From the NCBI GenBank assembly GCA_964106915.2, contig OZ066915.1: a stretch of 64,000 bases of DNA, one strand, 5' to 3'. Position numbers and translations under genes: made by a program. This document shows positions 11,261 to 62,051 of the stretch, piece by piece (position 1 is the stretch's first letter; each line of letters begins with the position of its first letter). Origin of the DNA: Podarcis gaigeae. Taxonomy: Eukaryota. Under the pieces are notes generated by a model, which saw nothing but the letters and a program-made list of their open reading frames with translations, did no database searches and was not told the origin of the DNA.

Positions 11261-11636
11261 CTTGGCGGGGGCTGGTGCGGCTCCAGACGGGAGTGAGGAG
11301 AAGGGAGGAAATGCGGCAGAGCGCGAGAGCAGCAGGATGGACCCGGCGGTGGCGGCAGCAGCAGCAACGCCGCCCCGCTCGCTCCCTGCAGCCTTTAAGA
11401 CCAGGCGACCCCCCGAGCTGCCATGCCCCCCTCTTCTCCAGCGCCCCTAGTCCTGGCTGCCATGAAACGGGCAGGTTCCTCGCGCCCCTGGTCCCCCGCG
11501 CCAGTGAACCGGCGACTCCTTTACACCATGATTCCTGCGCCCTCCTCCTCCTGCTGCTGCTGCTCGTCTAGCTTAGGGAATGTGGGGAAACCGCAGTGAA
11601 ATCATTCAAAAGGAACGGCCAGTCAGTCGCCCCGAG

Positions 11637-11717
11637 GCATTGTAGGGCTTGTAGTCCCGGCTCCACCGAGGCCGAGCCGATCGCTTCGCCCCAAAGACTA
11701 CGAGTCCCACAATGCAT
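11637..11717. promoter_or_regulatory. Divergent pair of ZNF143 (SBS)/ACTACA-type motifs
   Basis: Plus strand ACTACGAGTCCCACAATGCAT (11697-11717) and minus strand GACTACAAGCCCTACAATGC (11637-11656) both resemble ACTACAnnTCCCAnAATGC; about 380-450 bp upstream of the BICD2 ATG. Confidence 0.6.
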
Positions 11718-38627: not shown

Positions 38628-41559
38628 CAGGAGTAGTGACTGGAACTGGCCAGTCAAAACATGCTTCCTCAGCTTTACTGGCTTTCTGTTTCTGGACACA
38701 ATTCAAAGAGCTGATTATAATATTTAAAGCCAATCACAGCCTGGGGCCTGGGACTCAAAGGACCCACAAACCAGTCTCCTGGATGTTAAGATCTGCATTC
38801 ATATCTCTTCTCTGCATATCCCACCTGTGAAAGCTTAGGCTTAAGCTACAGTTCTCATGAGTTTTTTGAGGAAGTCATGTGCTTTAGATGAATGCTGTGG
38901 ACCAGAGTTTTTCTTTTAAGTTGTTTTCCATTTGTTTCACTGCTAAGTTCCAGCAAGTTCTGGCTGGGAAAAAGCCCTGATAATGGGCCTAGTGTTTGTG
39001 GTGTTTTCTTTTTTTTTTTGAAAATTGGTTTAGAAATTTCAGTTTAAAAGTTGGCCCATTTGAATTTGAACGCATGAAACTGCTGAAGCACACAAAGCTT
39101 CTTCCTCTCTGGCCCATTATCAGGGCTTTTCCCCAGACAAAACTCGCTGGAACTCAGTTCTGGCACCTCTCAGGTAGGCACCATTGCTATTCTAAGAGAA
39201 TAAGGATGGTGTTCATGGTGACTTCTGGCACATCTTTCTCTGGAAAAATAGCATGGCCCACTCTACTTTCTCTTGGGAGCACATCTCTGATAACCACTCT
39301 TCCCAATTTCCCCATATGATCTGGACATGAATATGTAGTAGCAGTAGAGTCAGAAGATATATTTGCATGCCATCTCCTAAGGCACTGAAAACAGGAAATA
39401 AACTCAGTATCATTGTAAGAGCTAATAACTAGGTACCTCCCAGCCTTTCACTGTAAAAGAGACATGCAATAACGTGCTGCCCTTATGTGTCATTTTATCC
39501 AGTTCTCAACATTTGGCGTGTTAGGAAGACTAGATGCAAACAAAACCACAATCTCCTGCCACCCCATTTGCGTTTCCTTCTTTGATATCTCCTAAGAGCT
39601 TTTGTGTCTAAGAAGGGATATAAAGCTATTATTGGCTGGCTGTACATGAAGTGGTGTGCATTAATGGTAGTCCAATGTCTGGGAGTTCCTAGAGTTGCTA
39701 TCTCAGTGGTTCTGTAATGTAATGAGATTTACTTCACTTAAATTTGAATCGATACTCCTGATGTTGTCAGCTGACTGGTCTCCTGAGGCTCAGACCTCAA
39801 GAGTCTCGGGCACTAAATAGCAGTGGGGACTTGTCCTTAGGAAGAAAATGGTCAGTGCCCCATGACCACTGGCAGACTGTGGCCAATCTTGCAGAGCCTG
39901 AGCCCACTCCTTCTCTCCTCTTCCTCCATACTATCAGCGTTCACTTTCCATTGTCTGTCTTCTTGCTTGGAGTCTGCGTCACTGTGGTGTGACTCCACGC
40001 CCATAGCACCAGAAAAAAGAACACATTTTCCCCAAACAATTCCCATTGAAAATGGTTTTCTGGAAAAGCAAGGACGCTTACCAACTTTTTCTTGTGACTG
40101 GCAACACCTAGCCAGTTATTTGCATACAATCAGCCTCAAGCACTGTAACTGCTGGTTCCCATGAGCCAGTTTTAGACTGCCACTGAAAGCAACAGGGATG
40201 GCAGTGGAGAGCACTCAGAGCCAGGCCAGCAGCAGTTGCTCGATAGCTTCAGTCTCTCTCCCCCCACCCCACCCCTGCTCTCATGCCCTGTGCTCCCAAT
40301 GATAGCAAAATCACAACAGTCTTGCCCACTCAGATCATGCTGAACTGAAACTGCACCAGCTGCTGTGAGTCAGGTGGTTGCCTACAACAGCTGATCTCAG
40401 ATTACTCGACACAGAGTTATGATTTGTCACACCCAACTCAGGATGCACAGTGACATCCTGCATGAGATACACACCCAGTTATCCCTGCTCTAGCAAAGAA
40501 TTATTCCTTGGCCATTTACAGTTCTCTCTTTTCTTTCAAGAAGTTCATCTCTGAAATAGCAAGACCAACCGAATAGCACTTACTTAGAGTGACCAAAGAG
40601 ACAATTATACATAGTAACATCACAGGTTAGTTGATTATTTTTTTCTATGCCTATGTTGTTTTCTTTTGGTAGTGGTTTTACTATAAGCACATGGCTGTTA
40701 TTTTACTTCCATGTGAGGAATTTAAGGCTCATTGATTGGATTCAGATAAATAGTTTCCGACAATAACATTTTTTCGGGCACCATAGAGTGGGGATTGAAT
40801 AGCAGTATGTTGTGTGAAGCAGGTGTATGTTGGATTCACAGTCAACACTTGCTGAAGAAACTGTAGCCTACCATGTCTAACAAACCACAGAAACCTTAAT
40901 GCACTGGGCCTCTTCAGTCTGTGACCATTTGATTCCATAGTCAAAAGCCAGTAAAAAAGAAAGTCTGAATCTGCCTACTATCAAATTGATAAGGCACCAG
41001 AAGTTTGAACAAAGAGAAATGTAGAAAGAAATTATTCAAAATGTTCTAAGTCAGACTTTACCAACCTGGAGCCTTCCAGATGGTGTTGGACTACAACTCC
41101 CATCAGCCCCAGCCAGCACAGCCTGATGGAATTTGTAGGTAACAATATCTGGAGAGCACCAGGTTGGCAGAGGCTGGTCTGGGTCTTTAATATAATTCAA
41201 TACAACGTTGAGCCAAAAAAAATATTTTTTTTATTTTCCACTTTGTGCCTTTGATGAAATAGGCTTTTGGCTATGAAAGGTTAGCAATCCACATGTTGCT
41301 TCAATGATAAGCAGTGTCCTCTTTCTGGAGTTCTGTTTTTAAAATAATGCAGTGTAGGCAGAGATTATTTTTCACTCTCTACTTCTATAAGAGCTATAAG
41401 CCTAAATTATTATTAAACTTCAAACTATTTTTAATTAAGCAATTATCGCTAACTTAATTAATGATAATGCTTAGATATTACTACTAATTACTAGGCACAC
41501 AGGAAGCTGACATATTCTGAGTCAGACCATTGGTCCCACTGGATCAGTACTGTCTACAG

Positions 41560-43790: not shown

Positions 43791-44385
43791 AAGCTCCAGG
43801 ATAAGTCATGTGACCAGAATGCCACTATAACATCCTGTTTTGTGACTTTGCATTGCTATAGCTGACAATAAAACCTGTTCCTCAGAAATATGCTCTCATT
43901 GCAAGTCATGTGACTGCTTCATGTGTTTCTCTTGTATCATTCAGTGCAATCTTAGGTACTCATAAATGTCTCAATGTGTTACCAGGATTTCAAAGGCGGA
44001 ATTGGTACCGGTTGTGCGTGTGTGTGTTTCCAAAAGGTTGTGCTGTGTCCTGGATTTTAGGCAAGCCAGTTGGAAAACCATAACAACTTTCAGGGTGTCC
44101 TATTTTTTACTTTTTGAAATATGTGTTAACTGGGCTTACTCCCTGTTAAGCATGCTTAGAGTTGCAGCCTTACTGCAGTAAATAAAATGTCATGTCACAT
44201 GACTCATGCGTGAAGCAGTTCTTTCTCAAGGAACTCTCAGGTTTTCTTATTTGCTTTCCCCACCTTATTTTTTAACGGTTGTTAACACTATCTGCCTGTA
44301 CAGATTTGAAATGGATTATGAAAGATCTGAAGGACTTAACCAGATTTACAATCTCTTTCTCCATCTCTTTTAAACAGACACAACA

Positions 44386-44434
44386 ATGAGTAACTCAAAT
44401 TCTGCTGATTTAGTTCATACAGGAGGAAAACAAG
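44386..44434 (+). CDS. TMEM40: TMEM40-like putative first coding exon (MSNSNSADLVHTGGKQ); exon 44378-44434
   Basis: Acceptor ctcttttaaacag at 44377, ATG with A at -3, donor AAG|GTAATG, phase-1 end in frame with downstream exons. No recognisable homology, so the start is tentative. Confidence 0.5.
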
Positions 44435-44912
44435 GTAATGAAAAGATGGGGAAACTAAGCCTGGGGGCACATTATTGGCTTAAAAGACAACTGGGCAACC
44501 AAGTATAATATATTTTTGTGTGCTTGGCTGTACTAAAGCGACATTTTTCAGAAGGCAGACATCCATGTGTTTTGTGTCAGCTTATTCTTCTGTAATATTT
44601 TGAGTCAAACGCATAAAATAGTTGGATACCAAAGTCTGCATGTTCACATCCTGATTTTGGGCTTGGAATGGGATATGTGAATTGGTGAGATCTCTCTTTC
44701 AGTTTTAACAGTACCACTGTCTGTAATTTAGCCTTTCCTGATTAAGGTAAATTTTATTTTTATGAAAATTACTCTCCGATTAGATTATTCTTATTCTAAT
44801 TATTAGTATTCACCTTCTATAGAATTGTCTCAAGGCAATGTACAATAAAAACACTATCTGCTTATACTGAACACTCATTTTAAAATGGGTAGCTATGGCT
44901 GTCAGTACTAAC

Positions 44913-45056
44913 ACCGAGGGCCTTCTCGGTAGTGGCACCCGCACTGTGGAATGTCCTCCCATCAGATGTCAAGGAAATAAACAACTATCTGACTTTTAGA
45001 AGACACCTGAAGGCATCCCTGTTTAGGGAAGTTTTTAATGTTTGATGTTTTATCAC

Positions 45057-45103
<47 letters not shown>

Positions 45104-45218
45104 GTTGGGAGCTGCCCAGAGTGGCTAGGGAAACCCAGCCAGATGGGCGGCATATGTATAAACAAACAAACAAATAAACAAATTATTATTATTATTATTA
45201 TTATTACTACTACTACTA
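44913..45218 (+). mobile_element. L2 3'-end fragment (same family as the 48.3-51.9 kb copy) with (ATT)n microsatellites
   Basis: gggccttctcggtagtggcaccc...cctcccatcagatgtcaag...gggaagtttttaatg is nearly the reverse complement of 48385-48600. Confidence 0.88.
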
Positions 45219-45390
45219 CAGTATGTAAGGCTAACTCTGTTTAGATATGTAAATAATACATGAGTAGATATGTAAATAATCTAATACATGTTTAGACATG
45301 TAAATAATACATGTAAATAATACTGATGGCTTTACCATCAGTAGTACATCAAGAAAATCTTCGATGTTTTTCCTCGTATACTTTGAACAG

Positions 45391-45435
45391 GTGGGAAACC
45401 AAAACGAGGCAAGAAATTAAAACCGCAAAAAGAAA
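45391..45435 (+). CDS. TMEM40: TMEM40-like putative exon (GGKPKRGKKLKPQKE)
   Basis: Acceptor ctttgaacag, donor AAA|GTGAGG, 45 nt, phase 1-1, open frame; no recognisable homology. Confidence 0.5.
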
Positions 45436-46080
45436 GTGAGGGTGAAAGTTCTTCTGAGGAGCTTAGAACAGAGAGTCCATCACAAGGTAACTCCAAAAGA
45501 TTGTATGATGCTTTGTCTGTGTGCAGGGAGAACAGATCTTCACTTGGGAGCTAGCACTTGCAAATCAATATTCAGATAAGCCCAGCAGCCAAGTTCAGAC
45601 TAGTGCTGAGCTGAAACAGGGTGGACCTTCGCAAACCTTTCTCTCACCCACTCATTCTGCACAAAACCTGCAGAATGCCCCCTCTGAGATATGGCTGCCA
45701 CTGAGGAACTTTTGGCATCAGCTGTAGACCCATCTACAGTATTTCATCTATTTCCACCCTGGGTTTTTTGTTTTTTTTTGAGAGAACGGGTAGGATATGA
45801 ATTCAATAAATCAGTAACAATAAATGCACAGGACTTTGTAATGCCTTGTCAAGTTTTGTTGTTGCCTTTCACTATGTTAGTATTTGTTTGTAGATGCTGT
45901 GTCAAATTATTAAAGATATGGAAATGATAACCTGCCTTTCAGTTGAAAAGGGCACAAAAAGAAAAATTAAACCACAAAAACAAACTATAACAGGAGTTTC
46001 TATATTTTGACAGCAACATAAGCTGGAAAGTTTTACCTTAACCATGCTTTTATCTGTTCTATATTTGTGCACTATTTTAG

Positions 46081-46116
46081 ATTCACCCAGAGAAGTCGTT
46101 CCATATGGTGAATCAG
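46081..46116 (+). CDS. TMEM40: TMEM40-like exon (SPREVVPYGES)
   Basis: Acceptor ctattttag, donor CAG|GTAAGT, 36 nt phase 1-1; matches recalled human TMEM40 DAPGEVVPSGESG. Confidence 0.85.
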
Positions 46117-46245
46117 GTAAGTTGACTAAAATCCTGAGCAGCACAGTTTTTAGGTTTGAGAGGCCCTTGGGTAATACCCCACACTCTGCATCTGTGAGTG
46201 GACCAGCTGCTTCCTCCTTCATGTTGCTGCTGCTGTTGACTTCAC

Positions 46246-47021
46246 CAGGGACGTCTTTACCATTGGGCATAGTGGCATGGCAACCAGGGCGCCAAGCTGT
46301 GGAGGGCGCCTGGCGGAGAGTCCAGGGAGGGGAGAGCGGGGAGGTAAGTGAGGTGGAGCTGGGGCTTGGTGCCTGCGCGCTTACAGCCCCCTTCAGAGGC
46401 ACTTGGACCCTGTTCCGCTCTGCAGCACCAGGTCCAAAGAATGAGGCGGGGGGGCGGGGAGAAGGCGTGGAAAAAGCCGCCTCAAAGAGCTGTGTGAGAA
46501 CTTACAGTGGTACAGTTTTGTAATTTAGGCTCAAGGCTCAATGATCTTGCAGCAACAGCCCCAAAATCTGCCCCGAAGTCCTGCCTTGTAACCTCTCCAC
46601 CCCCCTTGCCACTGTGTGTTTGTGTGTGCTTCACTGCTTTAATCTGGAAACAGTGTTTTTTTTTCCTGTCAGCTGGAGATTGTCTACTGTGATTGGTCCT
46701 TTTGCAACTGGCTGCATCAGTGGCTGTTACTGATTGGTTGTAACAGCTTTTGTTGTTGTTCTGTATTTTTTTCGGCGCTTTGGCTGACAAAAGCTGTTTT
46801 TGGTGCTGCGTGCTAGTTCCAGCGAAGGTATTATTTGTCATTTATTACCGATCTGCCCCTCCTTTAAAAAAGCGCAGAGGCCCCCTAGAAAAAGCTCACT
46901 AAATATTGGGAGGCCCCCTAAAAAAAGCTTAACAACTTTGGGGAGCCCCCCAAAAAACTAAATTTGGGGGCGCTGGGCGGATCTTTGCACCAGGGTGCTG
47001 TATATGCTAAAGATGGCCCTG
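46246..47021. mobile_element. GC-rich non-autonomous hAT-like element in a TMEM40 intron
   Basis: TIRs CAGGGACGTCTTTA / TAAAGATGGCCCTG (12/14); TSD poorly preserved. Confidence 0.65.
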
Positions 47022-47240
47022 GACCTTTTCTTCTCTTTCTTTGCTTCTCTTCTGGGCCAAATTGGCACGCCTCTCTCTCCTGGGAGAGACACACGTATTG
47101 GTAAACCCTATTTGCTGCCACAAAATGTATGAATTCTTCCTTAAACAAAAGGCTCCACATGGAAAGAAATGGGTTATATCGAGCTTGAACAAAGCAGCTA
47201 GAATTTTCTAGCTTTGGGGTGTTTCAAGACAAGTCTTCAT

Positions 47241-47256
47241 TGCTCCCTCTAGTGGT
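47241..47256 (-). promoter_or_regulatory. Candidate CTCF site
   Basis: Minus strand ACCACTAGAGGGAGCA is close to the CTCF core consensus. Confidence 0.45.
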
Positions 47257-47677
47257 AGCTTCACTCAATGGCTTTTGTGCATGGGTTTTATTGTTGTGAA
47301 CCACCTGACCTTAGGATGAAGGGTGGCATACAAATTTAATAAAATAAGTAAAAATAAATAAAACAATACTGTTATTTGGGTTGATGAGTTGCAGTCAGAG
47401 AAGCATGGTGAGCAAGGCAAGGAGCTGTTACAATACATAGAGGTTTATTTTTGGCCAGGTAGGAAGAATCTTCATATATATCCACTTCCTAGTATTGTAA
47501 TGTGGTTTGTTTCTGGTTTGTTTTGCAAAAGGAGATGCTTGTTTGCTTTGGTCCCCTCCAGACGACCTATTTATTGAACATTCATTCTGATTTGTTTCCA
47601 CAAAGATAGATTAGGTAATGTCAACTGTTTGTTGAACATTCGCTCTGATTTGTTTGCAGGGAGATTTATACATCACT

Positions 47678-47925
47678 GCCAGTGTGGTGTAGTGGTTAAG
47701 AGCGGTAGTCTCGTAATCTGGGGAACCGGGTTCGCGTCTCCGCTCCTCCACATGCAGCTGCTGGGTGACCTTGGGCCAGTCACACTTCTCTGAAGTCTCT
47801 CAGCCCCACTCACCTCACAGAGTGTTTGTTGTGGGGGAGGAAGGAAAAGGAGAATGTTAGCCGCTTTGAGACTCCTTAGGGTAGTGATAAAGCGGGATAT
47901 CAAATCCAAACTCTTCTTCTCTTCT
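47678..47925 (+). mobile_element. tRNA-derived SINE, Squam3-like, second young copy (TMEM40 intron)
   Basis: Near-identical to 2924-3170. Confidence 0.85.
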
Positions 47926-48164
47926 ACTGTATTAAGTAATTATCCCATGTTTTCCAATGCATTTCCCCATCACTTTAATTCTAGCAAAACAATTTCTATT
48001 TTTGGGTGGGGGGGAGGAGGAGGAAGAAGAGGCAGGCTTGTTGCACAAGATTGCCAGATTAACTTTAATTGCACACCCTGAATTTTTCACTATGTGACTG
48101 AATCCCACCACAAAATCGTGAAAGACTGAAAACACCTTTTATATCAGTCTGTGTTATTTTTCAG

Positions 48165-48197
48165 AAGTTGTGTGCAGAGACGGGGAACTTGCAACTG
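48165..48197 (+). CDS. TMEM40: TMEM40-like putative 33-nt microexon (EVVCRDGELAT)
   Basis: Acceptor ttatttttcag, donor CTG|GTAAAT, phase 1-1; sits where human TMEM40 has the 11-aa segment GLRRRGSDPAS, but the sequence is diverged. Confidence 0.55.
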
Positions 48198-48345
48198 GTA
48201 AATATAAATTGTTCTTTTATATGTTGTTCTTTTCTATATAACCCCTTTTAAGTCTTTTAATGCCTTTTAAGTCTCATACAAGTACCATGTTATCTGCCTG
48301 GCCTATGAAAGCTTCAACATTGCATGATCTGCCATATCATACAAA

Positions 48346-48346
48346 C

Positions 48347-48383
<37 letters not shown>

Positions 48384-51300
48384 TTATTATTTATACCCCG
48401 CCGATCTGGCTGAGTTTTCCCCAGCCACTCTGGGCGGCTCCCAATCAGTGTTAAAAACCGTACAGCATTACACATTAAAAACTTCCCTGAACAGGGCTGC
48501 CTTAAGATGTCTTCTGAACGTCAGGTAATTCTTTATCTCTTTGACATCTGATGGGAGGGCGTTCCACAGGGCGGGCGCCGCTACCGAGAAGGCCCTCTGT
48601 CTGGTTCCCTGTAGCCTCACTTCTCGCAATGAGGGAACCGCCAGAAGGCCCTCGGCGCTGGATCTCAGAGTCCGGGCTGAATGATGGGGGTGGAGACGCT
48701 CCTTCAGGTATACAGGACCGAGGCCGTTTAGGGCTTTAAAGGTCAGCACCAACACTTTGCTCGGAAACGTACTGGGAGCCAATGCAGATCTCTCAGAACC
48801 GGTGTTATGTGGTCCCGGCGGCCACTCCCAGTCACCAGTCTCGCTGCCGCATTCTGGATTAATTGCAGTTTCCGGGTCACCTTCAAAGGTAGCCCCACGT
48901 AGAGCGCGTTGCAGTAGTCCAAGCGTGAGATAACTAGAGCATGCACCACTCTGGCGAGACAGTCCGCGGGGAGGTAGGGTCTTAGCCTGCGTACCAGGTG
49001 GAGCTGGTAGACAGCTGCCCTGGACACAGAGTTAATCTGCGCCTCCATGGACAGCTGTGAGTCCAAAATGACTCCCAGGCTGCGCACCTGGTCCTTCAGG
49101 GGCACAGTTACCCCATTCAGGACCAGGGAATCCTCCACACCTGCCCACCTCCTGTCCCCCAAAAACAGTACTTCTGTCTTGTCAGGATTCAACCTCAATC
49201 TGTTAGCCGCCATCCAACCTCCAACCGCCTCCAGGCACTCACACAGGACCTTCACCGCCTTCACTGGTTCTGATTTAAAGGAGAGGTAGAGCTGGGTGTC
49301 ATCTGCATACTGATGAACACCCAGTCCAAACCCCCTGATGATCTCTCCCAGCGGCTTCATATAGATATTAAAAAGCATGGGGGAGAGGACAGAACCCTGA
49401 GGCACCCCACAAGTGAGAGCCATGGGGTCTGAACACTCACCCCCCACCACCACTTTCTGGACACGGCCCAGGAGGAAGGAGCGGAACCACTGTATGACAG
49501 TGCCCCCAGCTCCCAGCCCCTCTAGACGGTCCAGAAGGATGTTATGGTCGATGGTGTCGAAGGCCGCTGAGAGATCCAGCAGAACAAGGAAACAGCTCTC
49601 ACCTTTGTCCCTAGCCCGCCGGAGATCATCAACCAGCGCGACCAAGGCAGTTTCAGTCCCATGGTGAGGCCTGAATCCCGATTGGAAGGGATCCAAATGG
49701 TCCGTTTCCTCCGGGCGTGCTTGGAGTTGTTCAGCAACCACCCGCTCAATCACCTTGCCCAAGAATGGCAGATTTGAGACTGGGCGATAGTTGGCCAAAT
49801 TGGCCGGGTCTAAAGATGTTTTTTTAAGAAGCGGTTTAATGACCGCCTCTTTCAGCGGGTCTGGGAAGGCTCCCTCACAGAGGGAAGCATTCACCACCCC
49901 GCAGAGCCCATCGCCCAGCCCTTCCCGGCTCGCTTTTATCAGCCAGGATGGGCAAGGATCAAGGAGACAGGTGGTCGGTTTCACTCGTCCAAGCAGCCTG
50001 TCCACATCCTCGGAGGTAACAGATTGGAATTGATCCCATGTAACAGGACCAGACAGAACTCTAGCACTCTCCCGCCCTGGCCCTGCTCCCACAGTGGAGT
50101 CTACCTCCTTCTGAATCTGAGCGATTTTATCTGCAAAAAACTTTGCAAAAGCATTGCAGGAGATCTTGGGGTCCCTACCAGGCCCCGGTGGTACAGGTGG
50201 TTCTGATAGATTGCGAACCACCTGAAAAAGTCTCCTGCTGCTGTTTTCTGCAGATGCAATGGAGGCGGCGAAGAAGGCCCTCTTCGCCGTCGCCATTGCC
50301 ACTTGGTAGGCTCGACGTTGAGCTCTAACCCATGTCCGGTCTGATTCAGAATGAGTTTTCCGCCACCGGCGCTCTAGCCGTCTCAACGATTGTTTCATCA
50401 CCCTCAGCTCCGGGGAAAACCACGGGGCTGTCCGGGCTCCATGCAATCGGAGAGGGTGCTTCGGAGCCAGACAGTCAATAGCCCTGGTTAACTCCGCATT
50501 CCAGCGGGCCACCAGGGAATCAGCTGAAAGGCCATCAACTTGGGATAAAGCATCCCCTACCACTCTCTGGAAGCCAATTGGATCCATTAAGTGGCGGGGG
50601 CGGACCATCCGAATCGGTCCCACCTCCCTGCGGAGGGGAAGGGTTGCGGAGAAGTCCAGTTGCACCAGGAAGTGATCTGACCATGGCACTTCTTTTGTTT
50701 CGCTTTTAGTTAATGTCAGATCACCAACATCCGTAGAGGTAAACACCAAGTCTAAGGCATGTCCGTGGCTATGAGTTGGGCCAGACTTATTCAGGGACAG
50801 CCCCATGGAGGCCATGCTTTCCACGAAGTCCCGAGCGGCCCCTTGTAAGGTCGTGTCGGCATGGATGTTAAAATCCCCCAGGACAACCAAGCTAGGTGTC
50901 TCCAGGAGCATATCCGCCACGACCTGAAGCAGCTCGGGCAGGGAATCCTTGGTGCAGCGGGGAGGTAGGAATCCTGTACTGCCCCTATTGCCCAACTTCC
51001 AGAACATGCACTCAGAAAACTGGGTCTTCCCAATAGGACGCCTGGTGCAGACTAATGACTTCCTAAAAATCACTGCAACCCCCCCTCCCCGCCCACATGA
51101 CCTGGGTTGCTGTGCGTAAGAGAAACCTGGTGGGCAAGCAGCGGCAAGGACAGGTCCATCTGCTTCATCCAACCAGGTCTCTGTCACACATGCCAGATCA
51201 AATCCTCCATCCACAATCAGGTCGTGGATGGCAGTGGTTTTATTAATCATTGACCTGGCATTGCACAGCAACACTTTCAGGTCATGTGGGTTTCCCTTGC

Positions 51301-51947
51301 TGATTACTGTATCCTTTCGGTCAGGACCAGACCTGGAGGCAGGGATAGTCCTCAAACAACGACTAAACCTGCCTCCTCGGTAATGACATGGTCTGGTCTT
51401 AGCATAACTCCTCCTCCTGCCCGTGATCACTGAGATTGGGTGTCCCAATACATCTCCCCCTGTGGAACCTGCCCCACCCAATCTATTGGCTGAGGCCCAC
51501 TCCCAGGCAGCCATGACCCTTCCCCTTAAAAGGCAAAATACAAACTATATAATAATTTAACAGAATAATAATAAAACAAAACAGAACAAAACAGAACAAA
51601 ACAAAGCAAGAAGCAATAGCCCTGACTAAATGCTTATCCCACCCCAAGCAAAAATAAAATAATGAAATAATATATTATAAAAAACAACAACCACCATTTA
51701 AAGTGCTGCAAATTAAAAGCGATTAAAACATTTAAAACCATTGTGTCCATTGCTGCCGGTAGCTGCTCAGGCCTCTAAACTGTAGTGGTAGTGCAGGCCC
51801 CGCCCCCTAGGCCGGATGGAGTTGGCAGGAGAGGGAGCGGTCTTCCCACACTCACGCAAGCAGCAGCAGCAGCAGCCGTGTCCCGGAGGCCTCTCTCAGG
51901 CCTCTTATGCTGTGGCAGTGAGCGCAGGCCCCGCCCCCTAGGCCGGA
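48346..51947 (-). mobile_element. Near full-length L2-clade LINE (APE endonuclease + RT), antisense in a TMEM40 intron
   Basis: 923-aa ORF 48743..51514 with APE motifs (CNARS, TETWL, GDFN, SDH), RT motifs (LDLSAAFDT, GVPQGSVLSP, YADD) and the L2-type C-terminus (SRLDYCNAL, HITPVLRDLHWLP). Continues after a frameshift in ORF 48468..48782. (ATT)n 3' tail at about 48346-48383. 5' end approximate. Confidence 0.93.
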
Positions 51948-52770
51948 CTTACAATCATGGAATGGTCCAACCCCCTGCAATGCAGGAATCTCAACTAAAA
52001 ACACCCATGACAGATGACCATCCAACCTCTGCTTAAAAACCTAAAAGGAAGGAGAATGTTTGCTTTTACTTACAAAGTGTTCTAAGATATTTTGTGAAAT
52101 AGATTTGTATTTTAAAGCATTTTGGGCCACTCAATGGCAGATTTCCTAAAACAAAACAAAAACAAAACAAAAAACAGAGCATACTGATCCAATTTTCAAA
52201 CTCGTCCTTGCTTGTGGCCACAGGTGCAGCTCGGTGTTTGGCTTCCTATGCCCCCCTCAATATTGTGGGGGCTGAGCCCCCTGTTAAACAATATAGAGGG
52301 CTCAGCCCATAGGAGTTGGCGCCTATGCTAGGTGGGCAGGAGACAAGCAGAACTGGCCAGGCGGAAGACCCCCAGGCCACAGAGCCTGCAACAGTTGATC
52401 CTATTCCCTGCTCCCAGGGATAGCCTTTTAAGAAATGCTGCCTTTGATGACTACCTCCACTGTCGGAGGCAGTGAAACTGAATTGCTGGGAATCACAGGT
52501 GGGGAGGTTGCTTTTATGCTCAGGTGTGCTTGCAAGCCTCCCTTAGGCATCTGGCTGGCCAGTGTGAGAGCAGAGTGTTGGATTGGATGGGTCTTATTTT
52601 GTCCTTAGGTATTGCAAAATGCCCTGAGGTCCATTGACCAATGCACCAAGTAGAGAAATAGCAACAATAATAATAAAGAATAGAATTCAGTGGCTAATAT
52701 GATGTGGCTCAGCTTCAGTTTGTGTACCTGGGATTGACTTTTACTTTAACTATAATTTCATTTCCCATAG

Positions 52771-52839
52771 CATATGAAAATGTTCCCTGCCACCCACCTC
52801 ACCACCCAAGATGGTGGCTACCAGGCATACGAAAAGATG
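52771..52839 (+). CDS. TMEM40: TMEM40-like exon (AYENVPCHPPHHPRWWLPGIRKD)
   Basis: Acceptor tttcatttcccatag, donor ATG|GTAAGA, 69 nt phase 1-1; splicing gives GIRKDDEFFHF versus human NIKKDDEFFHF. Confidence 0.85.
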
Positions 52840-53895
52840 GTAAGAGTTTTACTGACCCTCAGACTCAGGCTGTGGGCACATTACCATTTACTCTGGCTCC
52901 AATGCACTCCTGCCCCTGAGTACACGTGACATTAGCCAGAATCCATATGTATGTTGTGGTTTCTTGAATAATGCTGCTGTTTCATGTGTTTTCCCTCAGA
53001 CATGTGTTTCCATCCTATTTGAAAATGTAAGCCATGGTTAAGCTGAGACGTGTATGTTTCGGACATCCATTGTGCATGCACAACTCTGTTGAATAGGACT
53101 TGGCAGCAAGGTTGCAGGCACAGAGAAACAAATCAGGTCATAGCACGTACAGCATTTTAGAATGCAACTTGAAATGCACGAGGGGAAAAGCCTCTCTGTG
53201 TTTTCAAGCCATTAACATGCACATGCCCTTAATTGCAAAACTGCTCAGTGTGAACCAGAAGTTCTCGCATGTGCAGGTACCTGATAAAAATGCTAGAATT
53301 CTATCCTAGAATTGTGAATAAACAGTGTAGTGGTGGTTTAATTATGGATGTTTAGATTATAATACTTGTGTAATTATACAATTATGCAAACAGCTTCAAA
53401 GACCATTTTGTCATTAAATAGTATATAAGTAAATAAATACTGCATGTGAGCACATGAAGGACAGAGTGCCTTTTCCACAACATTGCATAATCATAGACTT
53501 CACGTCTTGGACTTCCATATATAAAGTTCCTTGTAATTAATCAGTAAACTTAATTGCTGATTCTTGGCATTTTTAGCTGTGTGGGAATAAAGCATAGTTC
53601 CATATTTTAAATAATGTATATGGCTAAGAAGGTTGCTGACTTAAGTTCTTCACTTGAGTTGATGCCTCTGGAAAGTATACATAAATTATATATATGTACA
53701 GTGCAGTTAGTGAAAGTACTGGCTGTTGGTCTAAAGTATGTGAGTAATCATCACCTTACCCCCCTCCACAAACATATGTGTTCCAAAAGGACACAACCTT
53801 CACTAGTAGAAGAAAATTTCAAATTGCAGCCAGTAGGGGCATTGAGTTGGATTTTGTGATATCCCTTAAGAACTGTCTCTTCTCTCTCATTTCAG

Positions 53896-53967
53896 ATGAA
53901 TTCTTCCATTTTGTCATTCTTTGTTTTGCCATTGGAACCTTGTTGGTTTGCTATTACAGATATAAAG
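53896..53967 (+). CDS. TMEM40: TMEM40 exon, first TM helix (DEFFHFVILCFAIGTLLVCYYRYK)
   Basis: Near-identical to recalled human DEFFHFVLLCFAIGALLVCYHYYA; acceptor ctcatttcag, donor AAG|GTACAT. Confidence 0.93.
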
Positions 53968-54050
53968 GTACATCAAAACTGGAATGCACTGCTTTCATTT
54001 GGGTAACACAGAACATAATGTAATAGAAACATATATATGTATATTTTTAG

Positions 54051-54125
54051 ACTGGACAGTTTCCCTCGGTATTGGTTTGATGACCTTCGCAGGCTTAGAA
54101 ACAACTGGAATATATTTCGGTCTAG
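54051..54125 (+). CDS. TMEM40: TMEM40 exon, second TM helix (DWTVSLGIGLMTFAGLETTGIYFGL)
   Basis: Matches human DWFMSLGVGLLTFASLETVGIYFGL; acceptor tatttttag, donor TAG|GTAAGT; follows an 83-nt intron. Confidence 0.93.
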
Positions 54126-54314
54126 GTAAGTGTTTCGCATGTACCACTTGAGACAGCGAAATAAGCTGCTTCGTATTTATACCTAGGTATAAACTTTAAA
54201 ATATACCAACATTCATTTGATGTTTGTATTACAGTTTGAGTTGTAGTGGAGCTATTAGCTTGTACAGTTTTCTTTGCTTTGCATATAACCATTTGTCTTT
54301 CATTTCCCTAATAG

Positions 54315-54377
54315 TGCACCGCATTAGAAGTATCCTGGAAAGTTTTATCCCCCTGCTTCAGAGCGTCAGGACACCTG
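54315..54377 (+). CDS. TMEM40: TMEM40 exon (VHRIRSILESFIPLLQSVRTP)
   Basis: Matches human VYRIHSVLQGFIPLFQKFRLT; acceptor tttccctaatag, donor CTG|GTAATA. Confidence 0.9.
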
Positions 54378-54821
54378 GTAATACCTACTGCCCTCTTGAT
54401 GTGTCTTTATATACCCCTGTGGAATCATTTGGGTACAGCACATAGATAATAGTTGTAGTTTTGCCATTTTTTAACAGAAAAACTCTATTCATCCCAGGAA
54501 AAAGGGCTCAGGATTAAGAGATTGTGTGTCAGTTCCAAAGATTGTCATGGTTCCAGGTTTTGAGGGGAGACCTATGTAAACTTCCCTGAGGGTCCTTAGA
54601 GACAGAGTACTAAAAGCACAGACTTCTTTGTGCTTTTAACCAGCAGGCTTGTGCCTATTGGGACTGCCTCTCTCTAAAATCCCTTCTTCTTTCAAACTTC
54701 TAAATTAAATGCTCATGAAAGTGACATCGAAGTGCTATCTTTTCTGCCCCTCAGATCAATGTGCGGTATTTTGAAATAATCATACTGACGAGTTTCTCTC
54801 TCTCACTTTGTCATTGTGTAG

Positions 54822-54841
54822 GTTTGAAAAAGATTAACTAA
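54822..54841 (+). CDS. TMEM40: TMEM40 last coding exon (GLKKIN*)
   Basis: Polypyrimidine tract and acceptor tgtgtag at 54821; GLKKIN-stop parallels the human C-terminus GFRKTD-stop. Confidence 0.8.
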
Positions 54842-57121: not shown

Positions 57122-57368
57122 CATGGGTAGGCAAACTAAGGCCCGGGGGCTGGATCCGGCCCAATCACCTTCTAAATCTGGCCCGCAGACAGTCCAGGAA
57201 TCGTCTTATTACATGAGTAGAATGTGCCCTTTTATTTAAAATGCATCTCTGGGTTATTTGTGGGGCATAGGAATTTGTTTAATTTCCCCCAAAAAGTATA
57301 GGCCAGCCCCCCACAAGGTCTGAGGGACAGTGGACTGGCCTCCTGCTGAAAAGGTTTGCTGTCCCCTG
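57122..57368. mobile_element. hAT-Charlie (OC1/OposCharlie-like) non-autonomous element nested in a Squam2-like SINE
   Basis: Imperfect TIRs CATGGGTAGGCAAAC / GTTTGCTGTCCCCTG; minus-strand subterminal ggccagtccactgtccctcagacc...aacaaattcctatgc resembles the recalled OC1 sequence; degenerate TSD agctaaac/agttacat. Confidence 0.7.
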
Positions 57369-58517
57369 AGTTACATGGACCAATGATCTGATTCCCTAAC
57401 AAGGGAGTTTACCATGCTGGTTCAGGAGCACTGCTTTGGTGAACTGCACTGGGAGCCATGTACACACTTACAGGCACAAACATGCTGCAGCTAAGTAGTT
57501 CTGCCCCAAGATGGGAGACCATCTGGGAGCAATCTGCAAGCTTCTCTGAACTCTGCAGCTGAAGAACAGGATACAAATAATGAATAAATAATAAGAAGCT
57601 GCTGTTTCCTCCTCTACTCCCTTAACCTCTGTTTGATTTCCCCATACACTCGAGATGGCATGCTCCACCTTGCTCCAAGCGCAGATGGTTGAACAGGCTA
57701 ATAATAGATCATAAACCTCAGAGAAGCCCAAGGACATGTTGTCTGTGGTTACTTGTTTGTTTTAAATCAGTGATGGGTGAGCCAGAGACTCAGTCCAGAT
57801 ATTCCAGCTCAGTCAGCACTGATCTCAAGCAGACAGTACCGAGGGACAGAAAATCGGGCTCTTGGCCTTCCTAAACCGATAGGAGATGTCGTTTTCTTCT
57901 CTCAGCACATGCACAAGAAGTGTGTTTGGTCAGTATTTAAGACAGGGATGAGTAACCAAGTCCCATCAGTCTCCAGCCAGTTTGCAGAGAGAGAGGCTGA
58001 CAGCAAGTAGGAAAGGGACACCAGAAAATATGAGCAGAAGCAGCTGGCGATAGAGGAAGAGGAGGATGGAAGAAATAACAGCCCCACTACTCTTGGTTGA
58101 AAATACAGTGCATGGAAATGTTTCACCTGAACACAGGAAGCAGGTAGTTGAAGTGAAATGTTTGCTTCTGTATATCGTATTTCACTACTGTGCCAAATGG
58201 GAAATATTTCTGGACAAGCTAGCAGTTATGTGAGAGAGAAATGTTTCTCGGGGCTAGTAGTACAATGGAAACGGAAGAAGCGACTGAGATGTCACAGTGC
58301 TACATTCAAAGCCCTATGGTCAGCCATAAAATTCACAATCCCACAAGTGTTTGGAGAAGAGAGAAGCATCATAAATAATTTTGGTACATTAAATTACAGC
58401 AATTTACTTGGATCTTTCTGTTTTACGTTATGTGCTATTGCCTTATCAGCATCTAGGTTTCCAGAAATCCTAACAGTTCAAAACAGCAAACATGATTTTT
58501 CTCCCAAAACTTTTACT

Positions 58518-58523
58518 TTTATT
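58518..58523 (-). terminator. Candidate TKT polyadenylation signal AATAAA
   Basis: tttatt on the plus strand, about 130 nt past the TKT stop, followed on the minus strand by GT/T-rich sequence. Confidence 0.55.
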
Positions 58524-58649
58524 AGAATTCTTCCATTAAAACTCTGCATATAATTTCAACCCTGTTTGAAAGCTACAGTGTTTGGTGTTTTTTTTAACCA
58601 TCCTTATCCCAAAACCCTGTCCCAGAACACAATGGGTATACAACACAAA

Positions 58650-58837
58650 CTACTCTGCATTCCTTGATTTGGACACTGCCACCTTAACAGCCTGGATGAT
58701 GCCATCCTTATCGATGCCAAACATCCTAAGCAGCTCAGCTGATTTTCCACTTCTTGGTATGTGGGACACAGCCAAGCGAGTGACTGTGATCCCTGGCTCC
58801 CCAACCACAGCCGCAGCGACGGCTTCTCCAATGCCAC
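58650..58837 (-). CDS. TKT: Transketolase last coding exon ([16 protein letters not shown]...VSKSRNAE*)
   Basis: Inside ORF 58650..58883; matches the TKT C-terminus; acceptor tctttccctag at 58838. Confidence 0.95.
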
Positions 58838-59929
58838 CTAGGGAAAGATAATATACAAATGGATGATAAGTCAAGGCTAACAAGCTTTATTTCTTTGTAA
58901 GCAGCTTAATCCAGCTATTTAAAAAGAAAACAATTGGATAGTTCAGAGGGATTGGAAAGGTTGCAAAGTTGTTTGTCCCATGAGAGGCTTTTGCCTAAAC
59001 AGTTTTTCTTCTAAGAAGATTAATGCTTTGATGCCCAATCAAGACAGCTGATCTCCAAGAGTCCACACAAGCCATCCAAGTAGAGTACGTAGTTGGATCA
59101 TGAAGACACAGCAGATACAAAAATGCTATTTTATAAATGTCTAAAGGAGGACCTGTGGTAAAACGTTGCAGTGTGGAGTGCTCCTTTTTAGTGTTCCAGC
59201 CAGCCAGTTAGCTATGCTTTCCTCCACAAAATTCCATTCCACTATATCATTCCCCTGCCCCTCCACAGCAAACAGTCAGCATTCTGAGCACAATGAGCTT
59301 GTTCATTCCTCAATGGACATCTTTGAGGTTCCTTAGCTATTTCCCCCAAAATATTTTTTTTCTAGGAATGTTGGGGTTCACCCCAAGCCTGCTGATACCT
59401 CCCCATTCTGCGAGGATGGTGCCATTTTGGCTATATAACTAATGGCGCTCATACCCTGAATATCTGAAATAGAGGAAACAATGTTTTAGATATGTAGCTT
59501 ATTAGATTATGTTGGACCCCCATCAGCCCCAACCAACTAATGGTCAGGGATAACAGAGTAATATCTGGAGAGCCAGCAGCTCCACTACAGCAGCAGGAAA
59601 TGCAACTCCAACACAACAATTTTTAACTGTTGCAAGAGCACACCCAAGCTAGGAATGTCATGAGAGAAATCTGTACCATGTATAGGTAGAGCTGAAACAC
59701 AGGAACTAGAAAATAATCAGTGTCCATGTATTTCTCATCATTGTTATTTCTCATCATTGTTATACCTTCCATGTATGTCCAATGCAATATACAAAATATA
59801 AAAAACCCTCCAAAGTTAGGAAACAGCACAGAAGAGGAATTTAAAAACAAACAAAAAATGGACACCCACGGCAGAGAAGTATATACAGTACTGAATTTTT
59901 CCCCTTTGTTATCATGTGTGTGGACCTAC

Positions 59930-60052
59930 CTTCATAGTAATGGTCTTCCACAGTGATAATTCTGCCTTTGGTTGCTCTTGCATTTTCAAGTATAGTTTTC
60001 TTATCCAGAGGTTTTATAGTGAAAGGGTCAATCACTCTGATGGGAACTTTTT
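59930..60052 (-). CDS. TKT: Transketolase exon ([41 protein letters not shown]), 123 nt
   Basis: Inside ORF 59841..60125; acceptor tttctcag, donor AAG|GTAGGT. Confidence 0.95.
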
Positions 60053-60980
60053 CTGAGAAAAAGAATGGGAACAGAATTATGCACCAGAGCATGTGGCTCA
60101 ACAAAACAGAGGACAGGGGACTCACTAATGTTTAATGTTTCATACACATTTATTAAAGCATCCCAATGGAGTCTTTGAAACCACTAAGTATTTGGGTTCT
60201 AAGAATGGCCAGAATACGGTCAAAAACAAGCTGACTGATAACTAAACGTTGCCTTACTTTCTCGTTTCGTCATTCCCTAGAATGAGGACACTCATGACCC
60301 ACTTCCAAGGACCTTGAAATTGATCCCCAGAAGAATTAAGACACTCAGAAGCTATCTTATGGAATATCTAAAGAACTAGATAGCACAAGGTCATCATTCA
60401 GCTTCAGTCTTCTTAAAGCACAGCTGCCTGCTCATTTATCCAATGGCTATAACTGCATTAACTTATTAGTACTATCATCTTGTGGACTTCTCAATAGTGA
60501 GATTTCCTTTATTCCACCAAAGGTGATCTTGGATAATGCCAATAGTCTTGGATAAAATGATGATATCTGGAGTGAAATGAGTAGCAACACATGTGTTTCA
60601 AGGAGCAAAATGAGGATGGGAATATGTGAACTACTGCCAGTTAGGTAGCCTGTAACTGAAAGTGTTCAGGTATGGTGCAACCTGTATGTTTCAGGAAAGG
60701 TGACATTTCATCTACTGTGAAGCAAACCATGGTTTACTTATCCAGGACTATCCATCTAGTAAGATCTTGTGCAGATGCAATATTCCTAATCAATATACCA
60801 CATGCTCACTGACTTCTCCTTTCCCTCCTTCCCTTTCATCCATGGTTCATCTTGCACATGCACTGCACTGAGGCTGATCATAGTTCTAAAGAATTTCCTA
60901 CCCCCCCCCCTTTATAGCCCTCATGTTCTTCCCTACAAGATGGCTGGTGTGCATTTCTCAAAAGAGTTTGGTGTAATCAC

Positions 60981-61074
60981 CTCTCTTCAGTTGCTCAGCT
61001 GCAGCCAGTGCCTCATGCAGAGTTACTCCTGCTCCAATAACCGTGACCTGGTCATCTTTGCTCTTGAATACCAC
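60981..61074 (-). CDS. TKT: Transketolase exon ([31 protein letters not shown]), 94 nt
   Basis: Matches human [31 protein letters not shown]; canonical AG/GT boundaries. Confidence 0.95.
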
Positions 61075-61206
61075 CTGATAACAACAGTAAAACAAAGAAT
61101 TAGAGAAAGTTCTAGATTTACTGGAAAAAGCTAGTAAAAATCACAATGTTCAATGACTACGTTCTTGTAGTTCAAGTCTTTTAGCAACTTTCAAAATGGC
61201 GCTCAC

Positions 61207-61290
61207 CTTGGCTTGTCCAACATGGAAATCCTCATTGCTGCCATAGATCACGGCATTTTCTGGACGACTGGTTCGTATGAAACAGATGCC
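61207..61290 (-). CDS. TKT: Transketolase exon ([28 protein letters not shown]), 84 nt
   Basis: Hand translation matches human [28 protein letters not shown]; acceptor aaaacag, donor AAG|GTGAGC. Confidence 0.95.
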
Positions 61291-61920
61291 CTGTTTTCAA
61301 AATGAACACAGGAGAGATTGTAACACCCACAATATCCCATGGAATTAAACTTCAAAACGGAAAAAAGCATTTAAAAGTCCAAACACCAAAATTAGTCTTT
61401 TTAAAGCTGAGTGTGTCTAGTTCTGGATGGGTGACCACCCAGGTATTATAAGCATGACACCTTGGGTTCCATGACAGAAGAAAAGTGAGGTATAAATGGA
61501 ATGAAATAAACAGCCAACCAACAATGAAACTCTAACAAATTCACAGCAATGGGCACCCTTTCCTATATGCCTCTGCAACAGAAGTGAGCAAACTTCAAAT
61601 TTGGAGGCAGTAATGGGCCAGATCCTTATCTTTCCTCCATCCCTATGCAGCAACTGTCAATCATTTGAGGTCATGAGGATGCCAGGCGATTGACCCCTGC
61701 CAAAGGTCTCTTGCACATTTACTTCCTAATGCCCACTGCACTTGGGAAGAGCTGCACAATGAGGAGTCCCAATGCTACCTATCCTCCATCTGATGTCATA
61801 TATGATATCAGGTGTAAGGCTTGCCTGAAATGAACTTGCAAGCCAAATGGGGAGGGCCAGCAGGTTCCCCACCCTTGATCTAAAACTCCCAAGCAAGCAC
61901 CCTGCGGAAGAGTTGCAGAC

Positions 61921-62051
61921 CTTTGTATTTGCAGCCAATTCCACTGCCTTTTCAGTGGATACAGCATCACTAGGGTAAAATACAGTTGAATTAGGAATGG
62001 CACGGAACATGCACAGATCTTCCAGCCCCATCTGTGAAGGTCCATCTTCAC
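61921..62051 (-). CDS. TKT: Transketolase exon ([44 protein letters not shown]), 131 nt
   Basis: GEDGPSQM transketolase motif; acceptor cttttctag, donor AAG|GTCTGC; size agrees with recalled human exon 10. Confidence 0.95.

What the first reader, a model, noticed from the sequence alone, without database searches (positions are those of the whole stretch)
44378..54841. Hidden TMEM40-family gene built from short phase-1 exons
Seen in sequence: nine GT-AG exons (49+45+36+33+69+72+75+63+20 = 462 nt), all introns phase 1, splice into a 153-aa protein MSNSNSADLVHTGGKQGGKPKRGKKLKPQKENSPREVVPYGESEVVCRDGELATAYENVPCHPPHHPRWWLPGIRKDDEFFHFVILCFAIGTLLVCYYRYKDWTVSLGIGLMTFAGLETTGIYFGLVHRIRSILESFIPLLQSVRTPGLKKIN. 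Established: the C-terminal two-TM region matches mammalian TMEM40, a poorly understood protein. Inference: the N-terminus seems to lack the mammalian poly-Ser tract and has a Lys-rich patch and a CHPPHHPRWW insert instead. Every internal exon is frame-neutral, so modular exon skipping is possible.
Basis: partly seen in the sequence, partly recalled or inferred. Interest (0 to 1): 0.7.

Follow-up and report, generated by a model that had tools for sequence, protein, structure and literature searches.

The report
Lizard TMEM40 lost its CARD domain
This is the ordinary, already annotated lizard TMEM40 gene (170 amino acids, not 153), but its relatives in frogs, turtles, crocodiles and birds carry an unannotated stretch predicted to fold as a CARD cell-death signalling domain, which lizards and mammals likely lost by dropping two frame-neutral exons.

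Summary
The gene is real and not hidden. It is lacertid TMEM40: the corrected model is 169/170 identical to annotated Podarcis raffonei TMEM40. The protein is therefore 170 aa and keeps a Ser/Glu tract, so 'lacks the Ser tract' is wrong; the His/Trp 'insert' is a shared sauropsid exon.

The new result is comparative. TMEM40 of frogs, a caecilian, turtles, crocodilians and birds has about 98 extra residues at the position of intron 1. They fold as a CARD (Z 12.8, rmsd about 2 A). Among this genome's CARDs they best match CARD19, 377 kb away (37.8 bits against at most 14.0), with the same 1-0-1 intron phases and 140/154 against 143/154-nt exons. 0 of 45 lepidosaur and 0 of 7 mammal proteins have it. 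Function remains untested.

The parts
40560..40625 (+). 5' non-coding exon (start approximate)
   Evidence: Joint 40625>44378 in 4 of 4 runs. No ATG in 40500-40625.
44378..44434 (+). Coding exon 1 (ATG at 44386, 49 coding nt, phase 1)
   Evidence: equals residues 1-17 of annotated Podarcis TMEM40.
44435..45390 (+). Intron 1 (956 nt): the position at which frog, turtle, crocodilian and bird TMEM40 carry the roughly 98-residue CARD insert; no relic detected here
   Evidence: Alignment. Domain profile against the six frames of the window: best i-E 2.4, outside the gene. Turtle TMEM40 against the genome finds only the membrane exons.
45391..45486 (+). Exon 2, 96 nt (reader: 45 nt): Lys patch followed by Ser/Glu tract
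Evidence: Joint 45486>46081 in 4 of 4 runs.
46081..46116 (+). Exon 3, 36 nt
48165..48197 (+). Exon 4, 33 nt; tandem acceptor with a second AG ending at 48167
   Evidence: The 169-aa Zootoca isoform X2 and the P. lilfordi model lack exactly this one residue.
52771..52839 (+). Exon 5, 69 nt: His/Pro/Trp-rich juxtamembrane segment
53896..53967 (+). Exon 6, 72 nt: transmembrane helix 1
   Evidence: PF15817 37.1 bits; hydropathy peak 2.1; joints.
54051..54125 (+). Exon 7, 75 nt: second, weaker hydrophobic helix
   Evidence: PF15817 37.7 bits; hydropathy peak 1.34; helix in the alligator model.
54315..54377 (+). Exon 8, 63 nt: amphipathic helix
   Evidence: Highest hydrophobic moment of the protein, 1.96 at residues 144-161; PF15817 E 0.004.
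54822..54841 (+). Exon 9, coding part (20 nt): C-terminal KKxx-type ending and stop; the 3' UTR continues to at least 56171
   Evidence: Joint in 4 of 4 runs and contig 21 of run X4. [K/R]K-x-x ending in 41 of 41 lepidosaur proteins with a canonical end.

Best explanation
The stretch is the single TMEM40 gene of a Podarcis-type lizard, spliced into a 170-residue membrane protein that lacks the predicted CARD domain found in frog, turtle, crocodilian and bird TMEM40, likely because two frame-neutral CARD exons were deleted in the lizard-snake-tuatara ancestor. SHOWN: exon structure, splicing in a relative, orthology to annotated TMEM40, and presence or absence of the N-terminal insert in database proteins. 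PREDICTED: the insert is a six-helix CARD. INFERRED: the CARD descends from the same two-exon (phase 1-0-1) module as neighbouring CARD19; it was present in the tetrapod ancestor and was lost separately in lepidosaurs and mammals, the phase-1 flanks keeping the frame. MECHANISM (inferred, about 55%): the lizard protein is a two-helix hairpin with both ends in the cytosol, kept in the ER/cis-Golgi by its C-terminal KKxx ending, with a disordered charged N-tail as a docking arm. In the long forms that arm displays a CARD, making TMEM40 a membrane-tethered death-fold adaptor that exon skipping can switch to a CARD-less form; the lizard gene is fixed in the CARD-less state.
For: Splicing and 170-aa length. 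One locus per genome over the Pfam cut-off. Fold: AlphaFold models of alligator and turtle TMEM40 have pLDDT block means of 76-91 and 82-94 over residues 11-130. VIA-align gives Z 12.8 with rmsd 1.9 and 2.1 A over 88 and 94 residues to caspase-1 CARD and BinCARD/CARD19 CARD; 28 of the 31 rows shown with Z>=8 name a CARD or a CARD-bearing protein. The turtle model ranks BinCARD first (Z 10.5), and Foldseek's top 4 rows are BinCARD (TM-score by target 0.82-0.84). Sequence bridge: a bird/alligator TMEM40 profile finds three shark tandem-domain proteins at E 3e-17, 1.9e-14 and 5.3e-8. These pass Pfam's CARD cut-off (40-54 bits against 23.9); P0258 matches only BinCARD in the PDB (E 7.6e-12) and in this genome only two exons at C2:81.565-81.569 Mb, beside a Ninjurin gene, as Card19 is in mouse (PMC8547626). 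A profile built from tetrapod TMEM40 alone scores that lizard CARD at 37.8 bits over 87 ungapped residues (0 of 500 shuffles reach it, best 10.4), against at most 14.0 bits for the 29 Pfam-CARD loci of the genome. Exon geometry: CARD19 143 nt (phase 1>0) + 154 nt (phase 0>1) from DNA; bird TMEM40 140 + 154 nt with the same phases, deduced from 6 and 3 unspliced fragments. Distribution: domain in 3/3 turtle, 4/4 crocodilian, 147/151 bird, 10/19 frog and 1/1 caecilian proteins, and in 0/45 lepidosaur and 0/7 mammal proteins; the 18 TMEM40 domains form one clade (100/99). Tail: Lys at -3 in 125 of 127 canonical endings (32 of 33 distinct), [K/R]K in 115 of 127.
Against: No single full-library sequence search makes the CARD significant by itself: Pfam CARD gives E 0.008-0.1 for individual TMEM40s, below cut-off; PDB profile searches give E 0.14-0.19 or nothing relevant; Foldseek E is 0.018; and the tool warns that Z under about 13 can be generic for helical bundles. 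Bird intron positions come from translated unspliced fragments, not DNA. Absence in lepidosaurs, mammals, axolotl (0/2), Pyxicephalus (0/4) and sturgeon/bichir (0/8) rests on database gene models; only this genome was searched directly, and monotremes were not seen. Only 120 of 296 hits were listed. The membrane part of both models has low confidence (pLDDT mostly 45-76 and 43-62) and helix 2 is only moderately hydrophobic. Strict KK occurs in only 38 of 127 endings (30 of 41 lepidosaur). No localisation or binding was tested. The RNA status of the runs is the tool's guess and they are from a relative.
Confidence: 0.8

Rival explanations
1. The reader's 153-aa form (donor 45435) is the main or a real alternative product, giving a lizard-specific N-terminus without a Ser tract.
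For: 45435 is a GT in the same phase and scores 7/9 against a crude donor consensus. Only 15 of 286 joints were displayed.
Against: 4 of 4 runs use 45486, which scores 8/9. All lacertid cluster members printed contain the 17 residues, and all 13 homologues compared score as high or higher with the 170-aa model except the poorly aligned P0002.
Confidence: 0.04
2. TMEM40 is a whole-gene paralogue of CARD19 (CARD, linker and membrane helix all duplicated together) and works like it at the outer mitochondrial membrane, where the basic tail would serve targeting rather than ER retrieval.
For: The lizard CARD19 locus has one hydrophobic phase-1/1 exon in the roughly 25 kb downstream of the CARD; its longer form is 72 nt, as is TMEM40 exon 6. 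The genes are 377 kb apart. CARD19 needs its membrane helix and distal C-terminus, not its CARD, for mitochondrial targeting (PMC8997538, passages).
Against: A TMEM40 membrane-block profile gives that exon only i-E 5 in 40 kb, and the helix-1 profile does not list it in its top 8. TMEM40 has a second hydrophobic exon and an amphipathic exon. Sturgeon and bichir TMEM40-like proteins lack the CARD (0/8), which fits a CARD cassette added to an existing membrane gene.
Confidence: 0.3
3. The N-terminal insert is only a generic helical bundle, or a CARD gained separately in amphibians and archelosaurs, so lizards never lost anything.
For: Sub-threshold Pfam and Foldseek E-values; patchy presence among amphibian models.
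Against: Amphibian and archelosaur domains align end to end and form one clade. The ungapped 37.8-bit match to CARD19, the shared exon sizes and the shark CARD bridge (hhalign probability 97.2, E 3e-11) are not explained by a generic bundle.
Confidence: 0.07

Closest known systems
TMEM40 (Pfam PF15817); Podarcis raffonei XP_053233781.1 and P. muralis XP_028574857
   Same: 169/170 and 163/170 identical, same length, no gaps. Human TMEM40 is described as a 233-aa multi-pass protein with two isoforms (PMC5775579, PMC8227547; passages) and as keratinocyte-enriched and uncharacterised there (10.1101/2020.06.22.163717; passages).
   Different: Nothing substantial against lacertid orthologues. It has a shorter N-tail and a shorter Ser tract than mammals, and lacks about 98 residues (the CARD) plus one or two linker blocks present in birds, crocodilians and turtles.
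CARD19 / BinCARD (PDB 4dwn, 4fh0)
   Same: Long TMEM40 forms have a CARD that best matches CARD19's by profile score and shares its two-exon 1-0-1 layout; both put a CARD before a linker and a membrane helix; the genes are 377 kb apart in this genome.
   Different: The window's protein has no CARD. TMEM40 has two hydrophobic exons, an amphipathic helix and a [K/R]Kxx end, whereas CARD19 is single-pass and on the outer mitochondrial membrane (PMC8997538). Homology of the membrane parts is unresolved.
Uncharacterised shark tandem-CARD proteins (Callorhinchus milii LOC103185066; Pristiophorus and Heptranchias equivalents)
   Same: Closest non-TMEM40 hits of the TMEM40 profile; CARD19-like.
   Different: Two CARDs and no TMEM40 membrane domain in the 216-232-aa models; they group with lizard CARD19 rather than with TMEM40 in an unrooted tree with long branches.

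Membership tests
TMEM40 (PF15817) | C-terminal TMEM40 domain over the curated cut-off | tested here: met
   Exons 6 and 7 score 37.1 and 37.7 bits separately (cut-off 27); the 96%-identical P0003 scores 131.5 bits.
TMEM40 (PF15817) | Full-length orthology and single copy | tested here: met
   169/170 identity to annotated TMEM40; only this locus is over the cut-off in the genome.
TMEM40 (PF15817) | Spliced transcript | tested here: met
   All 8 coding introns of the corrected model are joined in contigs of a relative: 7 in 4 of 4 runs, 1 in 3 of 4. RNA status is guessed by the tool.
TMEM40 (PF15817) | Mammalian gene neighbourhood RAF1-TMEM40-CAND2 (recalled, from no call) | tested here: not met
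   Nearest Raf RBD match is 2.5 Mb away and nearest TIP120/CAND match 8.2 Mb away on the same contig. Direct neighbours are a BicD gene and transketolase. This indicates rearrangement, not loss of orthology.
TMEM40 (PF15817) | Two membrane-spanning helices | tested here: inconclusive
   Helix 1 hydropathy 2.1, helix 2 only 1.34; low-confidence models.
CARD proteins: the window's protein | Contains a CARD | tested here: not met
   TMEM40-CARD profile scores at most -0.8 bits on 45 lepidosaur proteins; no relic in the window or the genome.
CARD proteins: long TMEM40 forms of frogs, turtles, crocodilians and birds | Six-helix death fold closest to CARDs | tested here: met
   Two independent predicted models: Z 12.8 and 10.5, rmsd 1.9-2.1 A over 88-94 residues to solved CARDs. 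Prediction, not a solved structure.
CARD proteins: long TMEM40 forms of frogs, turtles, crocodilians and birds | Pfam CARD (PF00619) over cut-off | tested here: not met
   Best 16.5 bits against 23.9. Lizard CARD19 is also absent from the genome's 29 Pfam-CARD matches, so this model misses the subfamily when its exons are split.
CARD19/BinCARD subfamily | Closest CARD by sequence and shared intron positions and phases | tested here: met
   37.8 bits against at most 14.0; 143/154 against 140/154 nt, phases 1-0-1 (bird side deduced from protein fragments).
CARD19/BinCARD subfamily | Homologous single membrane helix | tested here: inconclusive
   Both have a 72-nt phase-1/1 hydrophobic exon, but the profile score is not significant.
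CARD19/BinCARD subfamily | Outer mitochondrial membrane localisation; CARD-mediated binding | not testable with these tools
   Needs cell imaging and interaction assays.
KKxx ER-retrieval proteins (motif recalled, from no call) | Lys at -3 and -4 of a cytosolic C-terminus | tested here: inconclusive
   The window's protein has KK at -4/-3; the family has Lys at -3 in 125 of 127 and KK in 38 of 127. Topology and COPI binding are untested.

The most novel reading that the evidence does not exclude
TMEM40 is an unrecognised member of the CARD19 branch of death-fold proteins: a CARD19-type two-exon cassette sat on TMEM40 in the tetrapod ancestor, making a membrane-tethered CARD adaptor that is still present in amphibians, turtles, crocodilians and birds, is switchable by in-frame exon skipping, and was permanently deleted at least twice (lepidosaurs, mammals). 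Human TMEM40 would be the anchor half of a former CARD signalling protein.
Probability: 0.75. Interest if true: 0.6.

Novelty: new variant of a known kind. Interest (0 to 1): 0.45.

Why it matters
The gene in the window is already known, and the novelty class refers to the family architecture it led to. TMEM40 has no known molecular function; the papers read describe knock-down effects on proliferation and apoptosis and keratinocyte enrichment. A CARD19-type CARD in chicken and Xenopus TMEM40 gives a concrete, testable starting point in standard models (partners, oligomerisation, organelle), adds a candidate third membrane-anchored CARD protein beside MAVS and CARD19 in non-mammalian tetrapods, and is a clean case of repeated domain loss made possible by symmetric phase-1 exons. 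A structure-based death-fold atlas covered only human, mouse, rat and zebrafish among chordates (PMC11874512, section 10), which would explain why it was missed.

Tried and rejected
1) Second read-laying on four other runs (X7, X10, X11, X13): the 15 of 193 joints shown were all repeat artefacts, so it gave no information on junctions or isoforms. No listed holder is on record as RNA.
2) A look-alike of exon 2 inside intron 2 (about 45959-45984): local score 29, reached by 3 of 300 shuffles, A-rich; not claimed as a duplicated exon.
3) A YEN (SH2-type, recalled) motif in exon 5: a YxN pattern is present in only 3 of 20 lepidosaur proteins checked; dropped.
4) The long N-terminal extension of the P. 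lilfordi 257-aa model: its frame has a stop in the window's 5' exon; rejected for this genome.
5) Search for CARD relics in the window and genome: nothing.
6) ESM Atlas: no usable hit for the turtle domain with TMEM40 clusters skipped, and only TMEM40 clusters for the turkey protein.
7) PDB sequence search with the bird-heavy alignment A1: one chance hit, E 9.7.
8) Mammalian-type synteny: not kept.
9) Rfam: 0 matches in the window.
10) My first count of tail endings mis-sorted 16 intron read-through endings; one search is the corrected count, which sets aside 39 non-canonical and 83 read-through endings of 249 proteins.
11) Literature: TMEM40 alone gave 184 papers (40 listed); TMEM40+CARD gave 2, unrelated by title; TMEM40+CARD19 gave 1, both names in separate gene lists. 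Broader searches listed no paper linking TMEM40 to a death fold; these show only the top 10-30 of each. The atlas PMC11874512 has 0 occurrences of TMEM40 in its main text and in the one supplementary file held; dataset files not held could bear on this. Automatic database labels (InterPro, AlphaFold-derived domain sets) could not be checked.
12) Earlier scan notes: none on TMEM40.
13) No complex prediction was run, as no binding is claimed.


Full report
OBSERVATION. Pfam TMEM40 passes its cut-off at exons 6 and 7, the only 2 of 6 matches in the 1.5-Gb genome that do. Pfam accessions used in genome searches were recalled and confirmed by the tool's family names.

CORRECTION FROM TRANSCRIPTS. 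They splice exon 2 at 45486, not 45435, in 4 of 4 runs, and add an upstream exon ending at 40625 (15 of 286 joints shown). The corrected CDS is 513 nt, 170 aa. It is 169/170 identical to P. raffonei TMEM40 and 160-163/170 to five other lacertid entries. So the gene is annotated in close relatives, and the window is Podarcis-type. The 17 restored residues are a Ser/Glu tract, and exon 5 is shared with snakes, birds and alligator. The 5' exon has no ATG and a stop in the frame leading to the start. Neighbours are a BicD gene upstream and transketolase tail-to-tail downstream.

PROTEIN ANATOMY. Residues 1-95 are polar and charged (14 K/R, 16 D/E). Exon 6 is a strong hydrophobic helix (2.1), exon 7 a weaker one (1.34), exon 8 an amphipathic helix (moment 1.96), and exon 9 encodes only the last six residues. 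Among 249 family proteins with the membrane block, 127 have a canonical terminal-exon ending (39 other endings and 83 intron read-throughs set aside); 125 have Lys at -3, 115 have [K/R]K at -4/-3 and 38 have KK; all 41 lepidosaur endings are KK (30) or RK (11). This resembles the KKxx ER-retrieval signal (recalled) and fits a hairpin with both ends cytosolic; that is inference.

WHAT THE HOMOLOGUES SHOW. Bird, crocodilian and turtle TMEM40s are mostly 260-330 aa and carry an insert of about 98 residues exactly between the equivalents of window exons 1 and 2. Frogs and a caecilian have it too. AlphaFold models of the alligator and turtle proteins are confident over this region only. Structure searches return CARDs: Z 12.8 with rmsd 1.9 and 2.1 A to caspase-1 and BinCARD/CARD19 CARDs, BinCARD first for the turtle model (Z 10.5), and BinCARD in Foldseek's top four rows, though at E 0.018-0.023. 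Pfam CARD is sub-threshold on single TMEM40s. A bird/alligator TMEM40 profile against 1.84 billion representatives recovered three shark tandem-domain proteins that are CARDs by Pfam's cut-off; one of them matches only BinCARD in the PDB, and hhalign links the two alignments at probability 97.2.

LINK TO CARD19. The shark protein's only matches in this genome are two exons at C2:81.565-81.569 Mb, 377 kb from TMEM40 and next to a Ninjurin gene, as Card19 and Ninj1 are in mouse (PMC8547626, passages). A profile made only from tetrapod TMEM40 inserts scores this CARD at 37.8 bits over 87 ungapped residues; 0 of 500 shuffles reach that, and the 29 Pfam-CARD loci of the genome score at most 14.0, while the two CARD19 half-exons alone score 16.0 and 13.7. 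CARD19's CARD is encoded by 143 nt (phase 1>0) and 154 nt (phase 0>1). Nine unspliced bird-like fragments imply 140 and 154 nt with the same phases and the middle intron at the aligned residue. Such a cassette is flanked by phase-1 introns, so removing both exons keeps the frame. Unnamed bird-like proteins P0018, P0045, P0047 and a canary model lack it in frame, as do frog entries P0231 and P0242. Whether the membrane parts are also homologous is open: both genes have a 72-nt phase-1/1 hydrophobic exon, but the profile score is not significant.

DISTRIBUTION. The domain scores at least 25 bits in 3/3 turtle, 4/4 crocodilian, 147/151 bird, 10/19 frog and 1/1 caecilian proteins, and in 0/45 lepidosaur (tuatara included), 0/7 mammal, 0/2 axolotl and 0/8 sturgeon/bichir proteins (isoforms and fragments are counted, so these are not species counts). 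The 18 TMEM40 domains form one clade (100/99) apart from CARD19 and the shark domains, in a midpoint-rooted tree with three long branches. With the accepted tetrapod tree (established knowledge), this means presence in the tetrapod ancestor and separate losses in lepidosaurs and mammals. No relic remains in the window's 956-nt intron 1 or elsewhere in the genome by the searches run. Absences elsewhere rest on database models.

MECHANISM. Most likely the lizard protein is a CARD-less hairpin membrane adaptor retained in the early secretory pathway (about 55%, inferred). The main rival is a CARD19-like mitochondrial outer-membrane protein, since CARD19's targeting needs its helix and distal tail but not its CARD (PMC8997538, passages). 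Nothing here tests localisation or partners.

LITERATURE SEEN. PMC11874512: abstract, section 10, and a term search of its one held supplement. PMC8997538, PMC8547626, PMC8227547, PMC5775579, 10.1101/2020.06.22.163717 and PMC9868882: passages only. All others: search listings. Nine searches showed no paper that links TMEM40 to a CARD; subscription journals and automatic database labels were not searchable.

VERDICT. The finding as written is an ordinary, already annotated gene with one wrong splice donor. Its value lies in the family comparison: an apparently undescribed CARD19-type CARD in most tetrapod TMEM40s, lost in the lineage of this window. Interest 0.45.

Noticed in passing
window 48746-51544, minus strand (intron 4): A 933-codon open frame with endonuclease and reverse-transcriptase domains (Pfam Exo_endo_phos, RVT_1): a recent-looking LINE insertion that makes up most of the 4.6-kb intron.
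   Followed up: partly
window about 11000-11260, minus strand, in the GC-rich 10001-12000 block: Probable first coding exon of the BicD-family gene whose other exons lie at C2:81.837-81.863 Mb; the exon itself has no Pfam hit and the BICD2 name is recalled.
   Followed up: partly
window 58600-62070, minus strand: Last exons of transketolase, tail-to-tail with TMEM40; contigs cover 57311-58700, so the two 3' UTRs lie close or overlap.
   Followed up: partly
window 39862-40071, plus strand: A 70-codon open frame 81% identical to the N-terminal extension of the P. lilfordi 257-aa model; possibly an upstream ORF or alternative first exon, but not in frame with TMEM40 here.
   Followed up: partly
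L010-L011 (G000:C2:81557777-81569120, minus strand): CARD19 orthologue: two CARD exons and a 72-nt hydrophobic exon, next to a Ninjurin gene.
   Followed up: yes
proteins P0258, P0259, P0270: Uncharacterised shark proteins made of two CARD19-type CARDs in tandem.
   Followed up: partly
G000:C25:16.35-16.81 Mb (L015-L019, L021, L023, L025, L029, L032, L039-L041): 13 of the genome's 29 Pfam-CARD matches cluster in 0.46 Mb, probably a caspase-1-like gene array (identity recalled, not tested).
   Followed up: no
proteins P0033, P0154, P0044, P0018: Database isoforms that repeat the exon 3 block (snake P0033) or lack the exon 4, exon 7 or exon 5 block in frame: single-exon modularity in relatives.
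   Followed up: partly
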